A DNA stretch of 64,000 bases from Escherichia phage vB_EcoM_KWBSE43-6. The first letter of the stretch is position 1. Every line of letters begins with the position of its first letter. Location of the stretch: the sequence record NC_048186.1; one strand, written 5' to 3'. Positions 863 through 41,476 of the stretch are shown here, piece after piece. The position numbers and the translations under genes are program-made. The notes beneath the pieces were generated by a model that was given only the letters and a program-made list of their open reading frames with translations, did not search any database and had not been told where the DNA came from.

Positions 863-901
863 CTAAATACCCCTAGACGATTACATGTGCTAGGGGTATT
901 T
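863..901 (+). promoter_or_regulatory. late-promoter-like CTAAATA box inside a 12-bp perfect palindrome abutting the start codon
   Basis: CTAAATA 863-869; arms AAATACCCCTAG 865-876 and CTAGGGGTATTT 890-901, 13-nt loop; ATG at 906. Confidence 0.5.
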
Positions 902-905
902 TCAA

Positions 906-3900
906 ATGGCTAATAAACCCACGAAACCAAATTTTCCGCTTGGGCTTGAATCACAAGATCAATCCGTATTTCAAGAAGGTATTCTGAATAATGGTGTTGT
1001 AGAACATGGCCCAGATGCGGTAATGACTGTGCCAGAAACTCCTGACGCATCTGGGGTTCCTTCTGCTGTCCGTTATAACGAAGATGACGACCAGTTTGAA
1101 GGCTATTACAACGAAGGCGGTTGGTTGCCGCTTGGGGGTGGTAACGGTGGGCGCTGGGAACTCCTTCCGCATGCCCCCTCTTCCTTGTTACAGCTCGGTC
1201 GTGCATATCTGGTGGATAACACTGACGGTGCCTCTACGGTGGTTTTCCCTCCCCCTAAACGGGTTGGTGATAGCATCACTGTGTGTGACCTTTTTGGTAA
1301 ATTCTCAACTTATCCTCTGACTGTTGACGGTAACGGTAAATCGATCTATGGCTCTGCGGATAGCATGACGATTTCTACCGATAACGTCAGCGCGACGTTT
1401 ACGTGGACTGGTGAATCCCGTGGCTGGGTTATTACATCAGGCGTCGGTCTGGGACAAGGCCGGGTTTATAGTCGCGAAATTTACAGCCAAATTCTGTCAG
1501 CGACAACACCATCTATTACCCTGAGCACTCAACCATCTATTGTAGATGTGTATGTTGACGGAAAACGTTTGAAAGAATCCCTGTATACTCTCGACGGGTA
1601 TGAAGTTAAATTCGATCCGGCGCTGGCCTCTGGTTCTGATGTGCAGATTATTCAGTACATCCCAATTCAGCTCGGCGCGGGCGGTGGGGGTTCTGGTGGA
1701 ACTGTAATCACCTGGGAATACAACGGCGGCTCAGCTATCGGCGGAGAAACCCAAATCGTGTTGGATGTGGTCGTGGACTCAGTATCTGAGATCTACATCC
1801 GTGGTTCCCGTCAACAGATAGGGCGCGGGTTCACATTTGATCCTGCCACCAGTACGATTACCTTGGCGGATGAACTGGATGCCGGGGATGACGTTGTCGT
1901 CGTTATCAACGGTGACCCAACGGTCTACAACCAAATAGATCGCACTCCTTGGGAAGTTGCTCGGGCGTTTAACGTCTCAAATAACAGCGTCATTATGAGC
2001 AATGACAGGAATACTACCCTTGACGGGAAAACGATAGTATACGATATTAACAGTCAAAACTCTTGGGAAATTCCTGCTGGTATTCCTGTTGGCGCTAAAA
2101 TATCAAGTGTTTCTTCAGGGATTCTTGTGTACACCCCTGGTAACGTCAGTGTCACATTGACATTGTTGACGACGGGTACTACTGTTCTGAAACGCCTCGC
2201 CAATAGCAATTCTGGTAACGGCGGTGATATGGTTCTTTACAAAGCATCTTCAAATGCTGTGGAAAGAGCTATTTCTATGGCGTTGAAAGATTTTGTAAAC
2301 CTCCATGATTATTATCTGTCTTCTGATAACGGAGATTGGTATCCTGCATTTAACAGGGCTTTCCAAGATTCCCAAAATATTTTAGTTCCTTATGGTTCTC
2401 ATGTTGTCAAAACCACGGTTGTTCCACCATCCAATTCAAAAATAATTGGTCTTGGGGAAGCCAGTATCGTTAAATCACCAGATGCGATTGACGCCGCCGC
2501 CACAAACCTCGTTACCGTGTTTCGGGCTACTGGTTCAGATAATATATTGATTTCTGATATTACAATAGATGGTGGTGTTAACGAAGTCAACACCGCCAAA
2601 TCCTTTACACGAACTGTAAGGTTCATTAATTGTACCAACGTGTCGTTGCTGAGGGTTCGAGTATTAAACAACGCGGATTGGTCGACATCGTTCGAAGGCG
2701 GTCATGACTTTACGGTGAAGAATTATTACCAAAGATCGTATCGTTATCAGAACACTGCTATCAATTTGAATGGTGGACGTGATGGCCTACATTTCATGGA
2801 TTGTTATAATGTGAATGCAGACGGCCTTGACATAGAATCTGGTGATGATTGCGTGGGTATCACCACTACTGGTACAGATCTTGAAAATATCACGATTCGT
2901 AACCTGTGGGGTTCATCCAATATTGCTTCTCTCGTTATTTTTAACGAAGAAAAAGATTCTAACGATGTGTACTATTCAGCTAATGTCACTGGATTGAATA
3001 TTAGTGGTATCAGGATCAAGAAAGGCGGCAACGCTCGAAATATCGTCAGGGTTATAGGATACGGTGCCAACACCCAAATCAAAGATGTTTCAATCTTGGA
3101 TGTAAGGGGAAAAGCCTTTAACTCTTATGGTATTTGGGTGCAAGGTAGCGTTGACCATCCAGTAGACACAGTACACATAAGCAATTCAGACGTTGGTTCA
3201 CAACAGGCCCACGGCGTTCTGTTGCAGAATATAAAACGTTTGTCCGGTAACGTCTATGGTTATTATGAGGGTGTGAATTCTTCCGCTTCATTTGTTGGTG
3301 TGAACATGGTTTCGATCACTGGTGCGATGTTCACTCCAGGTTCTAGAAGTTCTTACGGGTATGGTGTACAAGTTCTGACCAGTAAAGATATCGTGCTGAC
3401 ACCTGATATCGAAAGTTGCGGCGCTGGGTTGTTCAGCTCTGCTTCTGGGGGTAATTTACGAATAGTAAACTGTGATGGTGTAACCATACCTTATGGCCGT
3501 GCCGTCGGGGACGTGGCTGTCAGCTATTGGGGTATCAACTTCGGTGGAAATACAAATTTAGACGTGGGTCTGGAATTCGTGTTTGGTGGGTTTACCAACT
3601 CGTCTCTCCCGAACTCTTATTATTTAAAAGCCCCAGCAGTTGATATCAAATGGAAAGAAGCGTCTGACGGGACTGTGACTATGAGTATCGCTCGTGGCGC
3701 CAGTATAGTCAGAAACAGCCAAGGCAATTTTACAATAACGTTCAACAATGATATGCGCAGTACATTGTTTTCTTGGCAGGCGACCGCCTATCACAATGGC
3801 GCGTTACGTTTAGTTCGTCTTGCTTCTGCTGTGGGGACTAAAACGATGACGATACAAGTAACGGATACGGCAAATGCCGCGACGTTCGCTGATTTTATAG

Positions 3901-3935
3901 AATTGAAAGCGTTTAACACTGCTACAGGATCTTAA
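906..3935 (+). CDS. tail spike protein, 1009 aa (TSP4-like), pectate-lyase-type beta-helix
   Basis: ATG 906; beta-helix signatures (NNADWSTSFEGGHDF, GRDGLHFMDCYNVNADGLDIESGDDCVGITTTG); N-terminal Ig-like modules as in gp10-like attachment domains; late-promoter hairpin upstream. Confidence 0.75.
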   Translation: MANKPTKPNFPLGLESQDQSVFQEGILNNGVVEHGPDAVMTVPETPDASGVPSAVRYNEDDDQFEGYYNEGGWLPLGGGNGGRWELLPHAPSSLLQLGRAYLVDNTDGASTVVFPPPKRVGDSITVCDLFGKFSTYPLTVDGNGKSIYGSADSMTISTDNVSATFTWTGESRGWVITSGVGLGQGRVYSREIYSQILSATTPSITLSTQPSIVDVYVDGKRLKESLYTLDGYEVKFDPALASGSDVQIIQYIPIQLGAGGGGSGGTVITWEYNGGSAIGGETQIVLDVVVDSVSEIYIRGSRQQIGRGFTFDPATSTITLADELDAGDDVVVVINGDPTVYNQIDRTPWEVARAFNVSNNSVIMSNDRNTTLDGKTIVYDINSQNSWEIPAGIPVGAKISSVSSGILVYTPGNVSVTLTLLTTGTTVLKRLANSNSGNGGDMVLYKASSNAVERAISMALKDFVNLHDYYLSSDNGDWYPAFNRAFQDSQNILVPYGSHVVKTTVVPPSNSKIIGLGEASIVKSPDAIDAAATNLVTVFRATGSDNILISDITIDGGVNEVNTAKSFTRTVRFINCTNVSLLRVRVLNNADWSTSFEGGHDFTVKNYYQRSYRYQNTAINLNGGRDGLHFMDCYNVNADGLDIESGDDCVGITTTGTDLENITIRNLWGSSNIASLVIFNEEKDSNDVYYSANVTGLNISGIRIKKGGNARNIVRVIGYGANTQIKDVSILDVRGKAFNSYGIWVQGSVDHPVDTVHISNSDVGSQQAHGVLLQNIKRLSGNVYGYYEGVNSSASFVGVNMVSITGAMFTPGSRSSYGYGVQVLTSKDIVLTPDIESCGAGLFSSASGGNLRIVNCDGVTIPYGRAVGDVAVSYWGINFGGNTNLDVGLEFVFGGFTNSSLPNSYYLKAPAVDIKWKEASDGTVTMSIARGASIVRNSQGNFTITFNNDMRSTLFSWQATAYHNGALRLVRLASAVGTKTMTIQVTDTANAATFADFIELKAFNTATGS

Positions 3936-3936
3936 C

Positions 3937-4173
3937 ATGAATATAAATTGTGTTTTTGTGAAAGACGAAATTCCCCTTGAGAAACAAGATGACTTTTTGA
4001 AATTATTTTTGGAAAGAATATCATTGGAATTCTCTGATGTCGTGATAACGGCAGAATGGGGAGACGATGAAACTGCTGTCGTTTCAGAGGATTGTTCTGA
4101 TTACGTCAAAGCAAATTATCAAAGATTTGTAGACGGTCTTAAACAAGACCTCATTATTTTCGATTATTTCTAA
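3937..4173 (+). CDS. hypothetical protein, 78 aa, acidic
   Basis: ATG 3937 two nt after upstream stop; AT-rich small ORF between tail-spike genes. Confidence 0.5.
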   Translation: MNINCVFVKDEIPLEKQDDFLKLFLERISLEFSDVVITAEWGDDETAVVSEDCSDYVKANYQRFVDGLKQDLIIFDYF

Positions 4174-4174
4174 A

Positions 4175-4212
4175 CTAAATACCCCATATTGGTAACGCCT
4201 TATGGGGTATTT
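4175..4212 (+). promoter_or_regulatory. late-promoter-like CTAAATA box inside a 12-bp perfect palindrome abutting the start codon
   Basis: CTAAATA 4175-4181; arms AAATACCCCATA 4177-4188 and TATGGGGTATTT 4201-4212; ATG at 4216. Confidence 0.5.
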
Positions 4213-4215
4213 CAA

Positions 4216-6795
4216 ATGGCCAGAAACATAGAAGAAATTTTCGGTGGGGTAGTCGTAGCACCACACCAGATCCCGTTCACGTACACTTCAACAAACGGTG
4301 GGGAAACTTTTATATCTCTGCCATTTTATCCCATCACCGGGTTCGTTACTATCAACGGTGGTGTACAGGTCCCTCTTGACAATTTCGAAATAGACGGAAA
4401 CACATTAAATCTTGGTCGAGAACTGGATCCAAGTGATGTTGTGTTCTGTTTGTTCGATAAAATCATGTCACCTCAAGATGCCAGTAACAACGCAGTTCGA
4501 GTTTATAAATTCATCTCTGTTGGAGGAGAAACGGAATTCACTCCAGATTTTACGGCGTATGGTGTCCAATCTCTTTATATCAATGGGAAATACCAAATAG
4601 CTGGTGAGGATTACACATATTCTAAGACAGATGGGAAAGTTTCTTTTACTACCCCATTAGTTACTGGAGTATGGGTTGCAGCTGAGATGAACATAAAGCA
4701 AAATATCCCCGCTTTAGCTGGCAATAATGGCGCATCACAAATCGGAACAGAATCAGGGCAAAATGTTCAATTAGAACTCGATTCATTCCGTAATTTGTTC
4801 GGGGAATATGGGTTTAGCATGATAGGGCAAACCACATATCAAGGATTGAGGAATTATAACGGCAATTCCAATTATATGATGATATATGGTAGATCCTATC
4901 TTCTAGATGGTGGTCATGGTATATTTGATTTAGTTCCTGGCGGTAATGCCATGACAACCCCTGACGATGATTGTGTGCATATTCGAGATACGTTGGGGCG
5001 GTTATGGCGTCGTAGATTTGAAGACAATGTCATAAGAATGAGCTGGGCGGGTGCTAAAAACCAATTAGAAACATCATCACCACAAGATGATGCTTTCAGG
5101 AACTGCCTGCTTGCGGCCAAATCGTTGTCTCCTACTGGTTATCCACAATCAATCATTAAAGGATTAGACCGTGGTGTAGTTTATCTTGCAGAGCGGCATT
5201 ATATCCGTTGTGGTAATTTCCCTGAATATATGGCGTGGAAATTGCCACCTACTGGTGGTGGTGACCGTTTTGGGCTGGATCTGCTGTGTGCATTGGGAGA
5301 AGGGGCGGGGTTCTTTATCGTCCAAGCTAATAACCCATTGTTGCGCGTCCGGGTAGACAACACTGGTATCCCATTCAATGTTTCGAATTATACTGATGCC
5401 CAACTTGTGAGTATAGTTGAGAACAATTATATCTTACGTTTGGAATCAATGGTGAACGCTCCGGAATTCGACGTTCATCCAGGTAATTATCCCGGTACTG
5501 TTCTTTACAGCACGGGTAAAAAGGATTATTCTGCAGTAACTGCACAATGGCCTGATTTGGTCCAAGTCTTACCGTCTATACAGAACGTCGGTAACGCGGT
5601 GTTTAACATAAAAAACTGTGGTCGAGATTTTATGTTAACCAATACTGGGGCTGGGTTGGGTCATTTTCATTCCGTTTGGTCACAAAATAACCGACTCCCT
5701 GGTTATATATCGAACTGCTATGATTTAACGATGACATATGAAGATTATGTCCCACACAACGAAACATCTGGTGGATTGATATTTAGTGAATGTGGCACTC
5801 TTTCTTTAGAAAATATTTTGATTGGCGCAGGTGGGGTAGGACATTTGTGTATATGGGATTGCCGTAACGTCCATATGAACCGTCATATCTCTATATGTGG
5901 TAATACCACTTGGGCTGCATCTAACCAAGTAGATGATCTTTATGCTTTAGAAATTTGTAACTCCGAAGTTCATATGAGCGGCGTGCATGCTCAAAACTCT
6001 GGTAAATTCGCACGTGTAGGATTCAATTCACAATTAACGGTTGATCACCTTACTGCATGGGATGTTTCAAAATTATTCTTGATGACGAATGATTTGACTA
6101 AATTGAAATATCGTGGGCAGCGGCAGGCTGTTACAGGGGACCCGAGCCGGATTTATGTGACATCAGGATTCGCTCAAAACCTTAACGCATCTCAGTTCGG
6201 TTGGGCTTGTGCTCCTGTAATAGAAATCGACAGCACAGTTAACGGTGATTTCAAATTTTATTGGAATTGCTGGACCAATAACGTTCATGCAGGGTATGGA
6301 TCTGAATCTGAAGCAAATCTTGCTATTATTAGCGTGGCTTCTACAAGTTCTACAGGATCTGTGTCATTCGGCGAAGACGCTAAATTGGAAGGTAATACGA
6401 CGAACTACGTCCTTCGTCTTGCAAACAAAAACCAATTGGGGAAAGTGCGCACTCGTCAAACATCTTTCTGTCGTGTACGTTATACCAATGACAACTCACA
6501 GTCATCTTTTGCAATGCGCGAAGCTGCTCATGACAATGGAACTACTGTGATCCCTATTGACGGAACAACATACAGCTATCCGTACCGCAGACCTGCTAAA
6601 TATTTCGTATCTTTAAACGTCCCTGCTGGTGGTGGTTCATGCTCAGTGACATTAAACGGTATGACGATTTTCCAAACTACGGTAGTCGGGACACATGGTA
6701 TAGTTATTGAAATGAAATACCAAGAAACCGTCGTGTTTACGTCATCCAACGTTACTGTATCGAATGCGCAGTGGCGTTATATTTTGGAGGAATAA
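4216..6795 (+). CDS. tail spike protein, 859 aa (TSP2-like), beta-helix
   Basis: ATG 4216 (track start 4189 is TTG inside the hairpin); same upstream architecture and tttcaaATGGC start context as 906 gene; beta-helix-like repeats in C-terminal half. Confidence 0.7.
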   Translation: MARNIEEIFGGVVVAPHQIPFTYTSTNGGETFISLPFYPITGFVTINGGVQVPLDNFEIDGNTLNLGRELDPSDVVFCLFDKIMSPQDASNNAVRVYKFISVGGETEFTPDFTAYGVQSLYINGKYQIAGEDYTYSKTDGKVSFTTPLVTGVWVAAEMNIKQNIPALAGNNGASQIGTESGQNVQLELDSFRNLFGEYGFSMIGQTTYQGLRNYNGNSNYMMIYGRSYLLDGGHGIFDLVPGGNAMTTPDDDCVHIRDTLGRLWRRRFEDNVIRMSWAGAKNQLETSSPQDDAFRNCLLAAKSLSPTGYPQSIIKGLDRGVVYLAERHYIRCGNFPEYMAWKLPPTGGGDRFGLDLLCALGEGAGFFIVQANNPLLRVRVDNTGIPFNVSNYTDAQLVSIVENNYILRLESMVNAPEFDVHPGNYPGTVLYSTGKKDYSAVTAQWPDLVQVLPSIQNVGNAVFNIKNCGRDFMLTNTGAGLGHFHSVWSQNNRLPGYISNCYDLTMTYEDYVPHNETSGGLIFSECGTLSLENILIGAGGVGHLCIWDCRNVHMNRHISICGNTTWAASNQVDDLYALEICNSEVHMSGVHAQNSGKFARVGFNSQLTVDHLTAWDVSKLFLMTNDLTKLKYRGQRQAVTGDPSRIYVTSGFAQNLNASQFGWACAPVIEIDSTVNGDFKFYWNCWTNNVHAGYGSESEANLAIISVASTSSTGSVSFGEDAKLEGNTTNYVLRLANKNQLGKVRTRQTSFCRVRYTNDNSQSSFAMREAAHDNGTTVIPIDGTTYSYPYRRPAKYFVSLNVPAGGGSCSVTLNGMTIFQTTVVGTHGIVIEMKYQETVVFTSSNVTVSNAQWRYILEE

Positions 6796-19192: not shown

Positions 19193-19199
19193 CTAAATA
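19193..19199 (+). promoter_or_regulatory. late-promoter-like box CTAAATA
   Basis: CGACTAAATACC 30 nt upstream of ATG 19223. Confidence 0.4.
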
Positions 19200-35461: not shown

Positions 35462-35722
35462 ATGGCTTGTGCGTCATCTATTCCGAAAATGCTTATCCTG
35501 AAATGGTATGAGCACAGTATTTATGCTCGCATCAAATCAGCTGCGAAAGAGGGTCGAAAAACGATCGAATTATTCCGTCCTTGCGCATCCTCCAAAGCGC
35601 ATCGCGATACATTCGTCTTACTGCGTGAATTGGAACGACTCGGCATCAAAATCGAACCTATGCCATGCAGTAACCCGATGGTCAATCTCTTCGTTCTGAG
35701 CAATTTTGAGAATTTGGAATGA
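35462..35722 (+). CDS. hypothetical protein, 86 aa
   Basis: ATG 35462. Confidence 0.5.
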   Translation: MACASSIPKMLILKWYEHSIYARIKSAAKEGRKTIELFRPCASSKAHRDTFVLLRELERLGIKIEPMPCSNPMVNLFVLSNFENLE

Positions 35723-36162
35723 ATACGATTATCCTCATAACTGGTTCGCGTTCTATTACGGAGCGCGACAAAATCTTTGAAAAGTTAGACGAACTTTCTC
35801 ATACAGATTCCGTTTGTAATCTGTATCATCCGTGCGATACCCTATTGATCGCTGGGGAGGCTGTCGGCGTCGATACGATCTGCAAAGATTGGGCTGAATC
35901 CAGAGGGGTGACTTATCTCGGGATGCCTATCCCCGATGAATACTTCGCTACATATGGGAAAGGGGCTGGAAACAAACGCAACCAGGACATGTTAGACAAG
36001 GCGTTGGAGTTATCACAGAAATACAAGGCGGAGATACTGCCTCTGGCTTTCTGGGACGGTTCATCGACTGGTACGCAGGATATGATCAAACGAATCAACA
36101 AAGCAGGGTTGCATTGTAAGGTCATGCTCTTGGGTAAGCCAAAAACCAAACGCCTTCTGTAA
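35719..36162 (+). CDS. SLOG-like (YpsA/DUF2493-type) Rossmann-fold protein, 147 aa
   Basis: N-terminal ILITGSRS strand-loop, central IAGEAVGVD glycine loop, C-terminal WDGSSTGT; pattern recalled from SLOG family. Confidence 0.45.
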   Translation: MNTIILITGSRSITERDKIFEKLDELSHTDSVCNLYHPCDTLLIAGEAVGVDTICKDWAESRGVTYLGMPIPDEYFATYGKGAGNKRNQDMLDKALELSQKYKAEILPLAFWDGSSTGTQDMIKRINKAGLHCKVMLLGKPKTKRLL

Positions 36163-36185: not shown

Positions 36186-36353
36186 ATGATCATTTTTCAA
36201 CTGTTTTGCTATTTGTTCACTCTGTACTTTCTGGTTGCTGTCGGTTATGAAACCTTCCGTGACCTGGCATCGAGCCAGTATGCGTCCAAACTGGTTTATG
36301 CTAAGAAATTTGCTGTCCGCTTCTGGAGCAATTTTCTGTATCGCCTCCCCTGA
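36186..36353 (+). CDS. small membrane protein, 55 aa
   Basis: ATG 36186 with GGAGA upstream; N-terminal hydrophobic helix; not in ORF track. Confidence 0.35.
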   Translation: MIIFQLFCYLFTLYFLVAVGYETFRDLASSQYASKLVYAKKFAVRFWSNFLYRLP

Positions 36354-36354
36354 T

Positions 36355-36383
36355 TTAAATACCCCCATCAATTGGGGGTATTT
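36355..36383 (+). promoter_or_regulatory. late-promoter-like box TTAAATA inside an 11-bp palindrome abutting the start codon
   Basis: Arms AAATACCCCCA 36357-36367 and TGGGGGTATTT 36373-36383, 5-nt loop; ATG 36388. Confidence 0.5.
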
Positions 36384-36387
36384 TCTT

Positions 36388-37116
36388 ATGAACGCACAAA
36401 TTTATGACGCCCTTGAACAAGGCAATGCATTTAACAATCCTCTCCCGGGATTCTCTGCTACTTCTCAGACGTTAATCACCAGTGGCCAACAAAGTATAGC
36501 TGGTATTACAAGCATCCCGGATACGTCCGTTCAGGCGGCGATAACCGCTGGTGGTTTGACTCCTGCTAAACTCAATACAATGAACACCATGTACGGGACT
36601 GCCAACACCGGGATCGGGACTCTGAATTCTTATGGTGACCAGACCGTTAATGAGGCATACAATAGGATCGGAACTTCAGTATCCTATAAATCCGGCCTCA
36701 AAAGTATTGAACGAGAACCCACCAACTGTGATTTGATTAACAACGCATTCGGTGTTGTACAGACACTTGGTCGTCAATGGTTGACTGCAATGGAGGATGC
36801 CTTATCTCCAATAACAGACAAAGTTCAAGAACTGTATGATCTGGCCAAACAAGGCGCGGCGGCGGGGCTGGCCAAAATACAGGCATTAGCCTCACAGGTC
36901 AACGGATTAATCAATGACGCTGTAGCAAAGGTGAATGGTGTTATTCAGAACATCACTGATGGGATAGCTGCTGAGTTAGCTCATATTGAAGATATGGTGA
37001 AGAAGTGTCTTAATTTCTCCTTTGCTAATGTTCTTGGCGAATGGGCAAAAGATCTTTGCGCAGGCGGTGTCATCAACAATATCGGTTCTAATGATCTGAA
37101 AAATGCCCTGAAATAA
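36388..37116 (+). CDS. hypothetical late protein, 242 aa, coiled-coil-rich (possible virion component)
   Basis: ATG 36388; same palindromic late element as two tail-spike genes. Confidence 0.6.
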   Translation: MNAQIYDALEQGNAFNNPLPGFSATSQTLITSGQQSIAGITSIPDTSVQAAITAGGLTPAKLNTMNTMYGTANTGIGTLNSYGDQTVNEAYNRIGTSVSYKSGLKSIEREPTNCDLINNAFGVVQTLGRQWLTAMEDALSPITDKVQELYDLAKQGAAAGLAKIQALASQVNGLINDAVAKVNGVIQNITDGIAAELAHIEDMVKKCLNFSFANVLGEWAKDLCAGGVINNIGSNDLKNALK

Positions 37117-37767
37117 TCAGGGCACAGTCCTTGCTGGCAGAACTCCCACTGGCTCAATACCTTCCACCAGGAGGGAGTTCACGCCTACATCGCTCAACCT
37201 AATCCATATCTTCCCACCAGGCTTAATTTCAAAAACGTTCATTTCATTTCCAACCGCTTCATTATTCACAAATACACCTTGTGTTGCGATCCTGATAGGC
37301 TTCTTCGTGTTGTTTGTGATTTGAAATGTAACAGTTATATCCGTGGTCAGATTAACTCCCTGTTTCATGGTGTAGCGTTTTATTTTGTCGTAGAATGATG
37401 GATTGAATGTGATGATGATGCTGTTGTTCTGTGAGTAATAAATACTTGCTGACAAGTAAGGAATTTTGCCTTCTTCCCCTTTGCGTAAAAGAGGGATGGT
37501 GGTTTTCCAGTATGGTCGCAAAGTGTCTTTATTGTCATCAAAACAACCGACAGGCTGGAGATTTTGGAAACTTTGAAACAAAATAGTGGCCTCATCCAGC
37601 ATGGATTTTTCACATTTGTTGCTGTCTGTTGAAATGGTTACTGGTACAACACGGACATCAGTATCCCAGAGGTCACTAACGGAAATGATGGGCGTGACGA
37701 AAATACGGCAACTTGTCAATACAAGTACCATAAAAATCATCACAATCCATCTTCTGATTCCGCGCAT
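37117..37767 (-). CDS. predicted lipoprotein, 216 aa
   Basis: Minus ATG at 37765-37767; signal peptide MRGIRRWIVMIFMVLVLTSC with lipobox LTSC; stop abuts stop of converging plus gene. Confidence 0.6.
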   Translation of the reverse strand: MRGIRRWIVMIFMVLVLTSCRIFVTPIISVSDLWDTDVRVVPVTISTDSNKCEKSMLDEATILFQSFQNLQPVGCFDDNKDTLRPYWKTTIPLLRKGEEGKIPYLSASIYYSQNNSIIITFNPSFYDKIKRYTMKQGVNLTTDITVTFQITNNTKKPIRIATQGVFVNNEAVGNEMNVFEIKPGGKIWIRLSDVGVNSLLVEGIEPVGVLPARTVP

Positions 37768-37805
37768 CAGGGACACAATTAATCTCCACAGCAAAGGTGC
37801 TAACA

Positions 37806-38306
37806 ATGTCTACTTCAGTCCAATTCAAACATGACAACCCAAATTATGCAGCATCCGATAAGTGGCGCTTAACTATCGGTGATCTGATATTGTTATCCCG
37901 CTCTGTACACGATTTTAGCATACCAGGCGTGTATTCCGAGGGCATCGATGGGCCTTCGCCCGGTTCAGTGCTCAACACGATCCCTTCTGAACGTTTAACA
38001 TATGATCCCATCGTATTTACGTTCGTTATCGATGAGGATTGGGTAAACTGGGAAACCATCTACAACTGGATAGCCAGCAACGCCGCCGCTGATATGGCTG
38101 TTAGTAAAGACATCACCATAGAATTACTCAACAACATGAACCGCCCGGTTGGCCTGCAACTTCTGTTGGAAGAAGCACGTCCAACTGCACTGGACAACGT
38201 TCTTGTTGATGTGGACGCTTCTGTTCCCCAATTAGTTACAACGGTGACTTTCAAGTATCTGAAACTGACACCGACCCGTGTCGTACGTGAAATTGATAAA
38301 GAATGA
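37806..38306 (+). CDS. hypothetical protein, 166 aa
   Basis: ATG 37806; diverges from lipoprotein gene across a 38-bp spacer. Confidence 0.55.
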   Translation: MSTSVQFKHDNPNYAASDKWRLTIGDLILLSRSVHDFSIPGVYSEGIDGPSPGSVLNTIPSERLTYDPIVFTFVIDEDWVNWETIYNWIASNAAADMAVSKDITIELLNNMNRPVGLQLLLEEARPTALDNVLVDVDASVPQLVTTVTFKYLKLTPTRVVREIDKE

Positions 38307-39581: not shown

Positions 39582-41099
39582 ATGGCCGACATTTCTGTGA
39601 CCAAAGTGAACGAAGTCCGTATGCGTGTGCATGCTGACGCAGGGATCTATGAAGAACTAAATGATTATTTCAAATTTGAAGATCCCAACTTTCAGCCTAA
39701 TCCTTTCAGCAAATGGGATGGCGTCGTCCGTTTATTCACCAAATCTTCCGGGTTGATCGACATCGGTCTTCTGTTTGAACTCTTCAAATTTTGTAAGACC
39801 AACGGTTATTCACTTGACGTAGATCCTGCATTGAAATATATCCAGGACATCCCTGATAATGAAATTCATGATTTCTGTAATAATTTGAAAACACAAATTC
39901 GCACAGAATCTGGGGAATACATTGATGCTGAAGTTCGACAGTATCAATTCGATTCCATCGCCACTGCCATGAGGCAATCTCGCTGCGTCCTCGAGCTGGC
40001 TACAAGTGCCGGTAAATCCTTTATTCTTTATGTGATGGCCCGTTACTACAGGGAAAGACGAGAAGCGCTCGAAAGTAATCTGAGGACGCTTATCGTTGTT
40101 CCTTCTGTGCATCTTGTCAGACAATTGTACGAGAACTTCGAAGAATACAGTCATGGACAATCCTGGAACCCGTTCTACCAGGTACAGACCATATGCGAAG
40201 GTGCAACCCGCAATATTGATAAACCCATCACAATTTCCACATGGCAAGGCATACAAGACCAGCCAAAGGATTGGTTTCATCAGTTTGGTGATATCATTGT
40301 TGACGAAGTTCATACCTCAAAGTCGGATAAACTTTCATATATCCTCAACAACTGCATAAATGCTGACCAGCGCCTTGGGGTGACTGGTACTTTGGCGAAC
40401 ACTAAAGTTGCTGGTCTGCAGGTGGTATCCCACTTTGGTGCCTATCACAAGATCATCACGGCTCGAGAACTGATCAGTATGGGATATGCAGCTGACATTA
40501 AAATCCGGATGATAGAATTGAAACACAGATTGGCCGACGCTATTGATATGCATGGCGCCGATTACCAGAAAGAAATGGAATATTTGATATCGAACGAAGT
40601 TAGAAACCGGCTTATCGCCAAGATGGCTTTAACATTGAAGGGTAACGTCGCCATCATGTTCGAACGTATTGATGCCCATATGATGATCGTGTATGATATC
40701 CTCAAAGAAATAAAGCCCAACGTATTTGTCATCAACGGGGAAGTCAAATCAGCAGACCGCATGCAAATCCAAAGGGCGATAGAAGAAGGTGAGGATATTA
40801 CTCTGTTGGCATCTTATGGAACGATGCAACAAGGGGTTTCTATAAAGAAACTTCACCATCTGGTATTGGCACACCCAAGCAAATCATATATTCGTGTTAT
40901 CCAGACTCTGGGAAGATTGATGCGTCAGCACTCAACAAAAGACGTGGCACTCATATGGGATTTGGTAGACAATTTGAGTTATAATGGGAGTTACAATCAT
41001 GCGTTGCGTCACTCTCACGAGCGATACAAATTTTATTTGACAGAACGCCACCCTGTCGAATTGAAAAGAGTGGCGCTGGAAGATTATTTGGGGTCTTGA
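39582..41099 (+). CDS. uvsW: UvsW-like SF2 DNA helicase
   Basis: ATSAGKSFILYVMARYY (Walker A), DEVH box, TWQGIQDQPKDWFHQFG match T4 UvsW. Confidence 0.85.
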   Translation: MADISVTKVNEVRMRVHADAGIYEELNDYFKFEDPNFQPNPFSKWDGVVRLFTKSSGLIDIGLLFELFKFCKTNGYSLDVDPALKYIQDIPDNEIHDFCNNLKTQIRTESGEYIDAEVRQYQFDSIATAMRQSRCVLELATSAGKSFILYVMARYYRERREALESNLRTLIVVPSVHLVRQLYENFEEYSHGQSWNPFYQVQTICEGATRNIDKPITISTWQGIQDQPKDWFHQFGDIIVDEVHTSKSDKLSYILNNCINADQRLGVTGTLANTKVAGLQVVSHFGAYHKIITARELISMGYAADIKIRMIELKHRLADAIDMHGADYQKEMEYLISNEVRNRLIAKMALTLKGNVAIMFERIDAHMMIVYDILKEIKPNVFVINGEVKSADRMQIQRAIEEGEDITLLASYGTMQQGVSIKKLHHLVLAHPSKSYIRVIQTLGRLMRQHSTKDVALIWDLVDNLSYNGSYNHALRHSHERYKFYLTERHPVELKRVALEDYLGS

Positions 41100-41476
41100 T
41101 CCACATAGGCGGGCGTTGGCTCGCCTTCTTCACTGTCGTCAACCAAACCCAGGAATGCGTCAATACTATCACAACAACGTTGTAACAGTTCCGGTTTGAT
41201 GGTTTTGTTGATGATCGCCTGATTTTTGTTGACCAGAGGGAACACTCTTAATTCGCCGAAGTTGCTCATATTGACGATCGCAACATAAAGCCCTGGCTTG
41301 GTATTACCAGACAGAAATGAGAATGGGACTTCTTTGGCAGAGTCGGATTTTGTTTCATCAACTAAAACCTTCAAAAGAGTAGTTGTTGATGTCTCACTAC
41401 CCAATTTCCGGCTTGCCATATCTCCGTGGCTGTACCCTACGGCATAGATTGCTACTAATTGTTTCATTCTATTCAT
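41084..41476 (-). CDS. hypothetical protein, 130 aa, opposite orientation
   Basis: Minus ATG 41474-41476; 3' end overlaps uvsW by 16 nt. Confidence 0.45.
   Translation of the reverse strand: MNRMKQLVAIYAVGYSHGDMASRKLGSETSTTTLLKVLVDETKSDSAKEVPFSFLSGNTKPGLYVAIVNMSNFGELRVFPLVNKNQAIINKTIKPELLQRCCDSIDAFLGLVDDSEEGEPTPAYVDQDPK

What the first reader, a model, noticed from the sequence alone, without database searches (positions are those of the whole stretch)
36186..37767. Small membrane protein, hairpin-gated late protein and a converging lipoprotein gene
A 55-aa single-pass membrane protein gene (36186) precedes the hairpin-gated late gene (36388). That gene's stop codon is directly abutted by the stop of a minus-strand gene encoding a 216-aa lipoprotein (signal peptide plus LTSC lipobox). 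There is no intergenic space or terminator between the converging genes. A phage lipoprotein of this size is a candidate superinfection-exclusion or envelope-modifying factor.
Basis: partly seen in the sequence, partly recalled or inferred. Interest (0 to 1): 0.5.

Follow-up and report, generated by a model that had tools for sequence, protein, structure and literature searches.

The report
Conserved phage outer-membrane lipoprotein gene block
This stretch of a Klebsiella phage genome holds three real but uncharacterised genes, one of which encodes a conserved outer-membrane lipoprotein whose relatives in temperate phages sit where genes that block rival phages are usually found, making it a testable candidate for that role.

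Summary
The window is a Klebsiella Taipeivirus (Ackermannviridae), 97-99% identical to published phages. There is a 55-aa single-pass membrane protein gene (36186-36353), a DUF7217 gene (36388-37116) and a converging DUF7424 lipoprotein gene whose stop abuts it (TAA|TCA).

Two corrections:
- The lipoprotein most likely starts at GTG 37776 (219 aa). This start and its GGAG box are conserved in all seven genomes compared.
- A terminator does exist. The two 3' ends form a hairpin (37103-37125) followed by U5 on the minus strand only.

All three ORFs are under strong purifying selection, and the block is syntenic across the genera compared. The hairpin before DUF7217 overlaps a TAAATA box that is strongly enriched upstream of genes. 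It sequesters the ribosome-binding site, as at two tailspike genes in the window. This fits T4-style late gating.

The lipoprotein has a confident model (pLDDT 91) but no informative fold match. Distant family members sit between the CI repressor and integrase of a P2-like prophage, in a lambdoid immunity region, next to a SieB-like gene, and inside a prophage tail module. This supports superinfection exclusion or envelope protection indirectly. Nothing has been shown experimentally. Ordinary-to-moderate interest.

The parts
36186..36353 (+). Gene for a 55-aa single-pass membrane protein (phrog_4845). Predicted N-out/C-in. Function unknown.
   Evidence: ORF. phrog_4845, E 8.5e-30. One KD19 peak at residues 1-21 and a tail with 6 K/R against 2 D/E. 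Conserved in five other genera, C-terminal motif N..Y.LP. dN/dS 0.19 with dS near saturation.
36356..36361 (+). TAAATA box, a T4-type late-promoter-like element overlapping the 5' arm of the hairpin
   Evidence: 13 of 18 plus-strand TAAATA copies lie 10-50 nt upstream of an SD-led ORF start, against about 1 expected. The box is conserved in seven genomes. The equivalent site is annotated as a putative late promoter in LIMEstone1.
36357..36383 (+). Hairpin (11 bp, 5-nt loop) followed by UUUCUU. Acts as an intrinsic terminator of the upstream genes and sequesters the GGGGG ribosome-binding site of DUF7217.
   Evidence: -17.2 kcal/mol, z -3.7. Annotated as a terminator overlapping the RBS in Magnus. 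Paralogous hairpins at 864-902 and 4176-4213 have different stem extensions (CTAG/CTAG, ATA/TAT).
36388..37116 (+). DUF7217 gene (242 aa, helical, no TM segment). Late, probably virion-associated protein.
   Evidence: PF23854, 340 bits. LIMEstone1 ORF129 'confirmed structural protein', 2 peptides, 18% coverage. 576 phage records, including Felix O1-like phages at 24-30% identity. No TM segment.
37099..37125 (-). Hairpin built from the 3' ends of both genes plus U5. A unidirectional intrinsic terminator for the lipoprotein gene.
   Evidence: Minus strand -17.3 kcal/mol, z -4.5, followed by UUUUU. The plus strand is followed by ACAGUCC. Annotated as a minus-strand terminator in Magnus. Equivalent hairpin plus T5 in Miltonvirus, and a compensatory C>A/G>T change in phage A221. 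Absent in CBA120 and LIMEstone1.
37117..37776 (-). DUF7424 lipoprotein gene (219 aa from GTG 37776; ATG 37767 gives 216 aa). Signal peptide residues 1-22, lipobox LTSC, lipid-modified Cys23, Arg at +2.
   Evidence: PF24199, 213.9 bits. Lipobox, C55, C78, N155 and S195 nearly invariant across 71 sequences. 95 of 109 members pass the lipobox rule. dN/dS about 0.09. AF2 pLDDT 91.3. Intact in 292 of 293 phage records.
37784..37787 (-). GGAG ribosome-binding site, 7 nt upstream of GTG 37776
   Evidence: TGGAGA-N5-7-GTG is invariant in seven genomes.
37806..38306 (+). gp3-like tail completion / sheath stabiliser gene, divergent from the lipoprotein gene with a 29-bp spacer
   Evidence: phrog_45 and a weak PF06841 hit. 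Annotated as gp3 in related phages. The divergent pairing with DUF7424 is conserved in distant T4-like phages L012, L014, L015 and Vibrio phage K474.

Best explanation
This is a conserved Ackermannviridae gene block with ordinary, T4-style regulation and one host-directed gene.

1. A small membrane-protein gene ends in a hairpin that terminates upstream transcription and pairs with the ribosome-binding site of the next gene. A TAAATA late-promoter box sits in the 5' arm. Transcripts started there by the phage late machinery should lack that arm and be translatable (inferred by analogy with T4 genes e, soc and I-TevI).

2. The gated gene encodes DUF7217, a late, probably virion-associated helical protein.

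3. The converging gene encodes a DUF7424 lipoprotein. It is predicted to be exported, lipidated at Cys23 and sent by the Lol pathway to the inner face of the outer membrane (Arg at +2), with a probable C55-C78 disulfide. It is a non-enzymatic binding protein acting on the host envelope. Its most likely role is to protect the infected cell, or the lysogen in temperate relatives, against incoming phages: superinfection exclusion or receptor/entry blocking, functionally like T5 Llp, Cor or T4 Sp/Imm. Its molecular target is unknown.

4. Its terminator is made from the abutting 3' ends and works only on the minus strand. It therefore shields DUF7217 from antisense read-through, while late plus-strand transcription is free to run antisense across the lipoprotein gene towards gp3.

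Shown: gene reality, family membership, lipoprotein signature, hairpins, motif enrichment and synteny. Inferred: promoter use, timing, localisation and the exclusion function.
For: Identity and conservation:
- 97-99% identity to Taipeivirus genomes.
- Synteny in Limestonevirus, Kuttervirus, Agtrevirus, Miltonvirus and phage A221 (Aglimvirinae, no genus assigned in the record).
- dN/dS 0.09-0.24 where dS could be estimated; dS is above 1.9 or undefined.

Late gating:
- TAAATA enrichment, 13 of 18 copies against about 1 expected.
- The same hairpin sits before two tailspike genes.
- The stem is conserved in seven genomes while the loop varies.
- Hairpin z -3.7.
- gp55, gp33 and gp45 homologues are reported for the family (PMC3121705, PMC3184105).

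DUF7217 in virions: LIMEstone1 mass spectrometry.

Lipoprotein:
- Lipobox and two further Cys nearly invariant.
- No C-terminal TM segment.
- Confident model.
- No conserved catalytic-looking residues beyond N155 and S195.

Exclusion-type contexts of distant members:
- CI repressor, then DUF7424, then integrase, abutting on one strand in a P2-like prophage.
- Downstream of the gene divergent from Cro/YdaS in a lambdoid immunity region.
- S24 peptidase fragment, then DUF7424, then a SieB-like gene, E 1.7e-4.
- Between the tape measure and Dit genes of a prophage.

Terminator polarity. No plus-strand terminator-like site lies between 37117 and 37806.
Against: - There is no experimental datum on expression, localisation or phenotype. 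No paper on DUF7424 or DUF7217 was found, and the terms searched for in the 2024 family review returned nothing.
- The prophage and bacterial members are only about 16-25% identical to this protein, so function may differ.
- There is no sequence match to any exclusion or defence family.
- The gene is a core gene next to gp3, not next to the receptor-binding tailspikes (about 30 kb away), unlike llp and cor.
- It is conserved across phages with different polysaccharide receptors, so it cannot mask the primary receptor.
- If the conserved minus-strand TAAATA at 38019 is its promoter, it would be late, which is atypical for exclusion genes.
- The junction terminator is absent in Kuttervirus and Limestonevirus.
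- The DUF7217 homologue was not among 22 virion proteins of the Felix-like phage VpaE1.
Confidence: 0.5

Rival explanations
1. The lipoprotein serves the phage's own release. It would be an unconventional outer-membrane lysis factor (spanin substitute), or a late factor that masks or alters envelope components so that progeny are not lost on cell debris.
For: - The Menlow (Taipeivirus) genome paper reports that no holin or spanin complex could be identified.
- The gene is a core gene of lytic phages of Enterobacterales and is also found in Vibrio and Aeromonas phages.
- A conserved TAAATA lies on its strand 243 nt upstream, within a patch of synonymous-site conservation. It could be a late promoter.
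Against: - 219 aa with a compact globular fold, pLDDT 91. Known o-spanins are short and largely unstructured (background knowledge).
- No C-terminal TM segment, so it is not a u-spanin.
- No adjacent i-spanin-like gene.
- Kuttervirus genomes are reported to carry an Rz-like spanin yet keep DUF7424.
- A lysis role does not explain family members inside prophage lysogeny operons.
Confidence: 0.15
2. The lipoprotein is a periplasmic inhibitor of a cell-wall or envelope enzyme, for example the tail lysozyme of incoming phages (like T4 Spackle) or host lysozyme-type hydrolases (like MliC or PliG). This is a specific sub-mechanism of exclusion.
For: - Exported, disulfide-containing beta-rich protein.
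- Ackermannviridae carry a gp5-like hub lysozyme (LIMEstone1 ORF61).
Against: - No sequence similarity to any inhibitor family.
Confidence: 0.1
3. The lipoprotein is functionally tied to tail completion or virion assembly, because its gene has stayed divergently paired with gp3 over very long evolutionary distances.
For: A divergent gp3/DUF7424 pair with a 24-76 bp spacer occurs in Ackermannviridae, in three distant T4-like metagenomic phages and in Vibrio phage K474.
Against: - A conserved Sec/Lsp signal and lipobox place it outside the cytoplasm, where tails assemble.
- It is not among the 39 LIMEstone1 virion proteins, whereas both neighbours are.
- The family also occurs in contexts without any gp3 gene.
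Confidence: 0.03
4. The arrangement is mainly regulatory. The two face-to-face and back-to-back gene pairs use antisense transcription as a timer. Late plus-strand transcription from 36356 (or from the embedded TAAATA at 37439) runs antisense through the lipoprotein gene to reach gp3 and switches the lipoprotein off late.
For: - No plus-strand terminator at the junction or inside 37117-37806.
- gp3 has no TAAATA box in its 29-bp upstream spacer.
- In L012 the only late-type box upstream of gp3 on that strand is the one before DUF7217.
- Clusters of synonymous-site conservation lie around the embedded TAAATA boxes.
Against: - Purely inferential, with no transcript data.
- The embedded boxes lack the usual C at -1.
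- They are absent upstream of the lipoprotein gene in L014 and L015.
- This idea is compatible with the main explanation rather than exclusive of it.
Confidence: 0.3

Closest known systems
T5 Llp and phi80/T1/N15 Cor outer-membrane lipoproteins (superinfection exclusion by receptor blocking)
   Same: [quoted passage not shown]
- Encoded as a lone gene on the opposite strand to its structural-gene neighbours.
- Relatives occupy moron or immunity positions in prophages.
   Different: - About three times larger (197-aa mature protein, against a 77-aa Llp precursor as cited in PMC9409062).
- No sequence or fold similarity detected.
- Not adjacent to the receptor-binding protein genes.
- Conserved regardless of tailspike type.
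- Target and phenotype unknown.
Prophage immunity-region exclusion genes (lambda rexAB, P22 sieA/sieB, HK97 gp15)
   Same: Distant DUF7424 members lie directly downstream of CI-type repressors, next to a SieB-like gene, or between tail genes. These positions are characteristic of those systems.
   Different: - Those proteins are inner-membrane or cytoplasmic, not lipoproteins.
- No homology.
- In this window the gene is in a strictly lytic phage and is a core gene.
T4 translational gating of late genes by an RBS-sequestering hairpin (genes e, soc, I-TevI)
   Same: - A late-promoter box lies inside the 5' arm.
- The ribosome-binding site lies in the 3' arm.
- The hairpin also ends the upstream transcription unit.
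- The design is repeated at other late genes (864, 4176).
   Different: - The box is (C)TAAATA rather than TATAAATA.
- Start sites are not mapped in any Ackermannviridae phage. PMC3184105 states that the late consensus was unidentified.
Pfam DUF7424 (PF24199) and DUF7217 (PF23854); PHROGs 3832, 2114 and 4845
   Same: Full-length, high-scoring members.
   Different: These families carry no functional annotation. The PHROG/Pharokka label 'GTP-binding domain' on DUF7217 comes from phrog_289, which lumps it with the upstream SLOG gene.

Membership tests
Bacterial lipoproteins (Lgt/LspA substrates, PROSITE PS51257-type signal) | Positively charged n-region, uncharged hydrophobic core, lipobox [LVI][ASTVI][GAS]C with Cys at positions 15-35 | tested here: met
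   MSLMRGIRRWIVMIFMVLVLTS|C23. 95 of 109 full-length family members pass a strict regular expression, and most of the rest look like truncated gene calls.
Bacterial lipoproteins (Lgt/LspA substrates, PROSITE PS51257-type signal) | Actual diacylglyceryl modification, LspA cleavage and Lol sorting to the outer membrane | not testable with these tools
   Only inferred from Arg at +2 (no Asp) and the '+2 rule' of Enterobacterales (background knowledge).
Pfam DUF7424 (PF24199) | Score above the gathering threshold over the full-length domain | tested here: met
   213.9 bits against a cut-off of 27, residues 23-213 of the 216-aa form.
Pfam DUF7217 (PF23854) | Score above the gathering threshold over the full-length domain | tested here: met
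   340.3 bits against a cut-off of 29, residues 1-242.
Llp/Cor-type exclusion lipoproteins | Sequence or fold homology to Llp or Cor | tested here: not met
Llp/Cor-type exclusion lipoproteins | Gene adjacent to the receptor-binding protein gene | tested here: not met
   The neighbours are DUF7217 and gp3. The tailspike genes lie at 906-6795, about 30 kb away.
Llp/Cor-type exclusion lipoproteins | Expression blocks infection by the same or related phages | not testable with these tools
   Needs plating, adsorption and DNA-entry assays.
Spanins (o-spanin / u-spanin) | Short outer-membrane lipoprotein paired with (embedded in, overlapping or next to) an i-spanin gene, or a lipoprotein with a C-terminal TM domain | tested here: not met
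   219 aa with a globular model. No C-terminal hydrophobic segment. No type-II membrane protein gene adjacent.
Intrinsic (rho-independent) terminators | GC-rich hairpin immediately followed by a U-tract on the transcribed strand | tested here: met
   Minus strand: 8-9 bp stem, -17.3 kcal/mol, z -4.5, then UUUUU. Plus strand: the same stem but no U-tract. The simple scanner missed it because of stem extension. Termination itself was not tested.
T4-type late promoter with RBS-sequestering hairpin | Late -10-type box upstream of the gene, and hairpin 3' arm containing the ribosome-binding site | tested here: met
   TAAATA at 36356-36361 with positional enrichment. GGGGG at 36374-36378 is paired in the hairpin.
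T4-type late promoter with RBS-sequestering hairpin | Late transcripts start inside the hairpin, so the 5' arm is missing | not testable with these tools
   Predicted start at about 36367-36369, from T4 spacing (background knowledge). No 5'-end data are available.

The most novel reading that the evidence does not exclude
DUF7424 is a new, structurally unprecedented family of phage-encoded outer-membrane lipoproteins. It is shared by lytic T4-like phages (as a core gene) and by temperate phages (in lysogeny operons and tail-module moron slots). In this reading it blocks infection by other phages by acting on a conserved envelope component rather than on a strain-specific receptor. In Ackermannviridae its expression would be timed by antisense late transcription from the neighbouring structural genes.
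Probability: 0.3. Interest if true: 0.6.

Novelty: new member of a known kind. Interest (0 to 1): 0.38.

Why it matters
Ackermannviridae are widely proposed for therapy and biocontrol against Klebsiella, Salmonella, E. coli O157 and Dickeya. A conserved exclusion lipoprotein would matter in three ways:
- It would affect how such phages behave in cocktails (mutual exclusion).
- It could point to a conserved envelope step that they use for entry, which is still unknown beyond the polysaccharide receptors.
- It would add a new protein family to the short list of phage outer-membrane exclusion factors.

The link made here between the lytic-phage core gene and prophage immunity-region genes gives a concrete, cheap experiment. 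The regulatory anatomy (the TAAATA box and gating hairpin) also offers a usable late-promoter definition for a family in which none has been established.

Tried and rejected

2. PDB sequence and profile searches gave nothing for the lipoprotein. For DUF7217 they gave only designed armadillo repeats and weak coiled-coil or tape-measure hits, judged to be compositional.

3. PADLOC and NCBIfam: no meaningful hits.

4. Literature. No paper mentions DUF7424 or DUF7217. No Ackermannviridae transcriptome was found. The terms searched for in the 2024 family review returned nothing.

5. The 'gp214-217 ferritin operon' of phage Sajous1 (PMC10892097) looked like this locus, being next to a tail completion protein. 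The record shows four unrelated plus-strand genes, so this lead was rejected.

6. Virion detection of the Felix-like DUF7217 homologue. VpaE1 gp047 is not annotated as structural.

7. An embedded late promoter for the lipoprotein gene in distant phages. TAAATA is present upstream in L012 but absent in L014 and L015, so this is inconclusive.

9. u-spanin and o-spanin readings were rejected on size, fold and the lack of a C-terminal TM segment or partner gene.
Full report
**Origin of the window.** The 1.8-kb region is 97-99% identical to Klebsiella phages of the genus Taipeivirus, family Ackermannviridae (phi1_175010, 0507-KN2-1, Magnus, Menlow and others). All further reasoning treats the window as such a phage.

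**Checking the observation.** The sequence and ORF list show the following.
- ORF 36186-36353 (+) encodes 55 aa. It has one strongly hydrophobic segment at residues 1-21 (KD19 2.27) and a basic tail (6 K/R against 2 D/E). It is a single-pass membrane protein, predicted N-out/C-in.
- ATG 36388 opens a 242-aa ORF ending in TAA at 37114-37116.
- A minus-strand ORF ends in TGA at 37119-37117. The two stops are therefore contiguous (TAA|TCA) with no intergenic base.
- That protein begins MRGIRRWIVMIFMVLVLTSC, a classical lipoprotein signal.

So the described objects are there.

**First correction: the start codon.** In seven Ackermannviridae genomes (five named genera and phage A221, which has no genus assigned) the minus strand reads TGGAGA-N5-7-GTG just upstream. 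The database homologues start MSLMRGI or MFLIRGF. The gene most likely starts at GTG 37776 (219 aa, lipid-modified Cys23), with GGAG 7 nt upstream. This leaves only 29 bp to the divergent gp3-like gene (ATG 37806).

**Second correction: the terminator.** The statement that there is no terminator is wrong for this phage.
- The last codons of the two genes are mutually complementary (GCCCTGA / TCAGGGC, extendable to 8-9 pairs, 37103-37125).
- As minus-strand RNA this folds at -17.3 kcal/mol (z -4.5 against shuffles) and is followed by UUUUU. On the plus strand the same stem is followed by ACAGUCC.
- The Magnus GenBank record annotates the same element as a minus-strand terminator. The simple scanner missed it, probably because a G-U extension of the stem shortens the T-run that it counts.
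- Miltonvirus has a 29-bp spacer carrying its own hairpin plus T5 in the same polarity (z -3.2).
- Phage A221 keeps the stem through a compensatory C>A/G>T change (z -2.6).
- CBA120 and LIMEstone1 have no significant hairpin.

The terminator is therefore real but lineage-specific.

**Are the genes real?** Yes.
- The order SLOG-domain gene, small membrane protein, DUF7217, convergent lipoprotein, gp3-like, UvsY, exonuclease, UvsW is conserved in Limestonevirus, Kuttervirus, Agtrevirus, Miltonvirus and phage A221.
- Synonymous sites between genera are at or near saturation: dS is above 1.9 or undefined. dN is 0.20-0.26 for the two larger genes (dN/dS 0.09-0.10 where it could be estimated). It is 0.35-0.57 for the small one (dN/dS 0.19).
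- The lipoprotein ORF is intact in 292 of 293 phage records that contain it. DUF7217 covers at least 80% of the query in all 576 records that match it.

**The hairpin and 'late' status.**
- The hairpin at 36357-36383 (11 bp, -17.2 kcal/mol, z -3.7) is followed by UUUCUU. It contains the GGGGG ribosome-binding site of DUF7217 in its 3' arm, and its 5' arm overlaps TAAATA (36356-36361).
- Two further copies of the same design (CTAAATACCCC...GGGGTATTT...ATG) occur at 864-902 and 4176-4213. Each precedes a tailspike gene.
- The stems of the three copies are extended by different complementary bases (CTAG/CTAG, ATA/TAT). This argues for selection on pairing rather than a coincidence of two motifs.
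- Of the 18 plus-strand TAAATA copies in the window, 13 lie 10-50 nt upstream of an SD-led ORF start. Random placement gives about 1 (maximum 6 in 2,000 trials).
- The family encodes gp55, gp33 and gp45 homologues (PMC3121705, PMC3184105). The LIMEstone1 record marks the equivalent site as a putative late promoter.
- By analogy with T4, late transcription should start about 6 nt after the box, that is in the loop. Late mRNAs would then lack the 5' arm and expose the ribosome-binding site. Read-through transcripts from upstream would be terminated or translationally silent. The start site is inferred, not shown.

'Hairpin-gated late gene' is thus a reasonable reading.

**DUF7217.**
- It is a full-length member of PF23854 and phrog_2114. 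It is helical, with no TM segment.
- Its LIMEstone1 orthologue ORF129 was found in CsCl-purified virions (2 peptides, 18% coverage).
- Homologues at 24-30% identity occur in Felix O1-like phages, between the tRNA cluster and the terminase gene. The VpaE1 copy is not annotated as a virion protein.
- The Pharokka label 'GTP-binding domain' stems from phrog_289, which merges it with the upstream SLOG gene.
- Its role in the particle is unknown.

**The lipoprotein: family and fold.**
- It is a full-length member of PF24199, DUF7424.
- Close homologues (at least 60% identity) all come from contigs of Ackermannviridae size.
- A profile search of 1.8 billion representatives found 66 clusters, almost all 190-235 aa and starting with a lipoprotein signal.
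- Across 71 aligned sequences the lipobox Cys, two further Cys (C55, C78; probably a disulfide), N155 (NDT motif) and S195 (LSDV motif) are invariant or nearly so.
- With this alignment AlphaFold2 gives a confident model (pLDDT 91.3, pTM 0.85), a compact alpha/beta fold ending in a beta-sandwich.
- The fold therefore gives no functional lead. The lack of conserved polar clusters suggests a binding protein rather than an enzyme.

**The lipoprotein: where family members sit.** This is the most informative result.
- Lytic T4-like phages. In distant phages (L012, L014, L015, Vibrio K474; 25-40% identity) the gene is always divergent from the gp3-like/UvsY/exonuclease/helicase cluster, with a 24-76 bp spacer. 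DUF7217 is the convergent neighbour only in L012, where the 3' ends overlap by 29 nt.
- P2-like prophage. The gene lies between the CI repressor and the integrase, with all three abutting on one strand. From background knowledge of P2/186-type phages, this is the transcript made in lysogens.
- Lambdoid prophage. It follows the gene that is divergent from a Cro/YdaS-like gene.
- Pseudomonadota metagenome-assembled contig (its cluster-mate protein is from Halomonas sp. G11). It is flanked by an S24 peptidase fragment and a protein with a sub-threshold SieB match (E 1.7e-4).
- Another prophage. It is inserted between the tape measure and Dit-like genes.
- One member lies among resolvases, SHOCT proteins and a RelB/YafQ pair.

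These positions are typical of lysogen-expressed exclusion genes and morons. They are guilt-by-association evidence for an exclusion or host-protection role, and they apply to relatives only about 16-25% identical to the protein in the window.

**Weighing the alternatives.**
- A lysis role deserves mention, because the Menlow paper could identify neither a holin nor a spanin complex. However, the protein is large and globular, lacks a C-terminal TM domain and has no partner gene. Kuttervirus is reported to have an Rz-type spanin in addition, and lysis does not explain the lysogeny-operon members.
- A Spackle/PliG-like inhibitor role is a possible sub-mechanism with only noise-level structural support.
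- A role in tail assembly is contradicted by the export signal and by its absence from the LIMEstone1 virion proteome, where both neighbours were detected.

**Regulatory side observations.**
- There is no plus-strand terminator at the junction or within 37117-37806, and gp3 has no TAAATA box in its 29-bp spacer. Late transcription from 36356 may therefore run antisense through the lipoprotein gene to reach gp3.
- Two embedded TAAATA boxes lie in clusters of synonymous-site conservation, although dS is otherwise saturated. One is on the minus strand at 38019, inside gp3, conserved in 7 of 7 genomes. The other is on the plus strand at 37439, inside the lipoprotein gene, conserved in 6 of 7.
- For gp3, 5 of the 11 fully conserved synonymous codons of the gene fall within residues 70-77.
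- These boxes may be promoters buried in each other's coding sequence. The evidence is suggestive only, and L014 and L015 lack such a box.

**Comparison with what is known, and verdict.**
- The sequences themselves are already in GenBank, some annotated 'putative lipoprotein', and in Pfam as DUFs.
- The regulatory devices are T4-type and ordinary.
- The lipoprotein works most like Llp/Cor-type or immunity-region exclusion factors. It fails the membership tests for those families: no homology, a different size, and not adjacent to the receptor-binding genes.
- I file the window as a further member of catalogued but uncharacterised families.
- What this analysis adds: the corrected start, the shared unidirectional terminator, a usable late-promoter and gating motif, a confident structure model, and the link to prophage immunity-region genes. 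The last of these turns the exclusion idea into a specific, cheap experiment.
- Interest is moderate to low unless that experiment is positive.

Noticed in passing
window 864-902 and 4176-4213: Two more copies of the CTAAATACCCC...GGGGTATTT hairpin lie immediately upstream of the tailspike genes at 906-3935 and at about 4217-6795. Each stem is extended by different complementary bases (CTAG/CTAG, ATA/TAT). Weaker versions occur at 19194 and 39552.
   Followed up: partly
window, whole (e.g. 7444, 9776, 12681, 19194, 23450, 28250, 29453, 39552): (C)TAAATA sits 22-48 nt upstream of 13 plus-strand and 2 minus-strand gene starts, against about 1 and 0.2 expected. It is a candidate late-promoter consensus for a family in which the literature says none had been defined.
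   Followed up: yes
window 38014-38019 (minus strand, inside gp3) and 37439-37444 (plus strand, inside the lipoprotein gene): Embedded TAAATA boxes coincide with clusters of synonymous codons that are identical across genera, although dS is otherwise saturated. They may be promoters buried in the neighbouring gene's coding sequence, which would give long overlapping divergent transcripts.
   Followed up: partly
window 35719-36162: The upstream gene encodes a YspA/SLOG-family protein (PF10686, E 9e-11). PHROG 289 lumps it with DUF7217 under the label 'GTP-binding domain', which then propagates into Pharokka-annotated genomes.
   Followed up: no
L009 6789-7583 (Pseudomonadota contig): The gene directly downstream of a bacterial DUF7424 member has a sub-threshold match to SieB, superinfection exclusion protein B (E 1.7e-4, 21.7 bits against a cut-off of 26). 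An S24 peptidase fragment lies upstream.
   Followed up: partly
L023 4425-6697 and L024: In a P2-like prophage the CI repressor, the DUF7424 lipoprotein and the integrase genes abut on one strand (5000/5001 and 5663/5666). This places the lipoprotein in the presumed lysogenic operon.
   Followed up: partly
L007 3447-4208, L008 3477-4211, L019 5413-6147: In Felix O1-like phages the DUF7217 homologue is the first protein gene after the large tRNA cluster and lies upstream of terL. Two Cys (C114, C224) and an N-terminal G.(A/G)F.NPL motif (consensus GNAF.NPL) are conserved across both phage groups.
   Followed up: partly
Public records of related phages: Annotated lengths of the lipoprotein gene are inconsistent: 203 aa in Magnus, 201 aa in A221, 174 aa in EspM4VN, and 102-aa fragments in Serratia phages phiMAM1 and 3M, against 221 aa in 2050H1. 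These look like wrong start choices or possible frameshifts.
   Followed up: no
window about 41081-41464 (from Magnus CPT_Magnus_090, L001 8982-9365): A second isolated minus-strand gene is embedded in the plus-strand replication cluster. It overlaps the 3' end of the UvsW-like helicase gene by 16 nt in the Magnus annotation. This is another convergent pair without a spacer.
   Followed up: no
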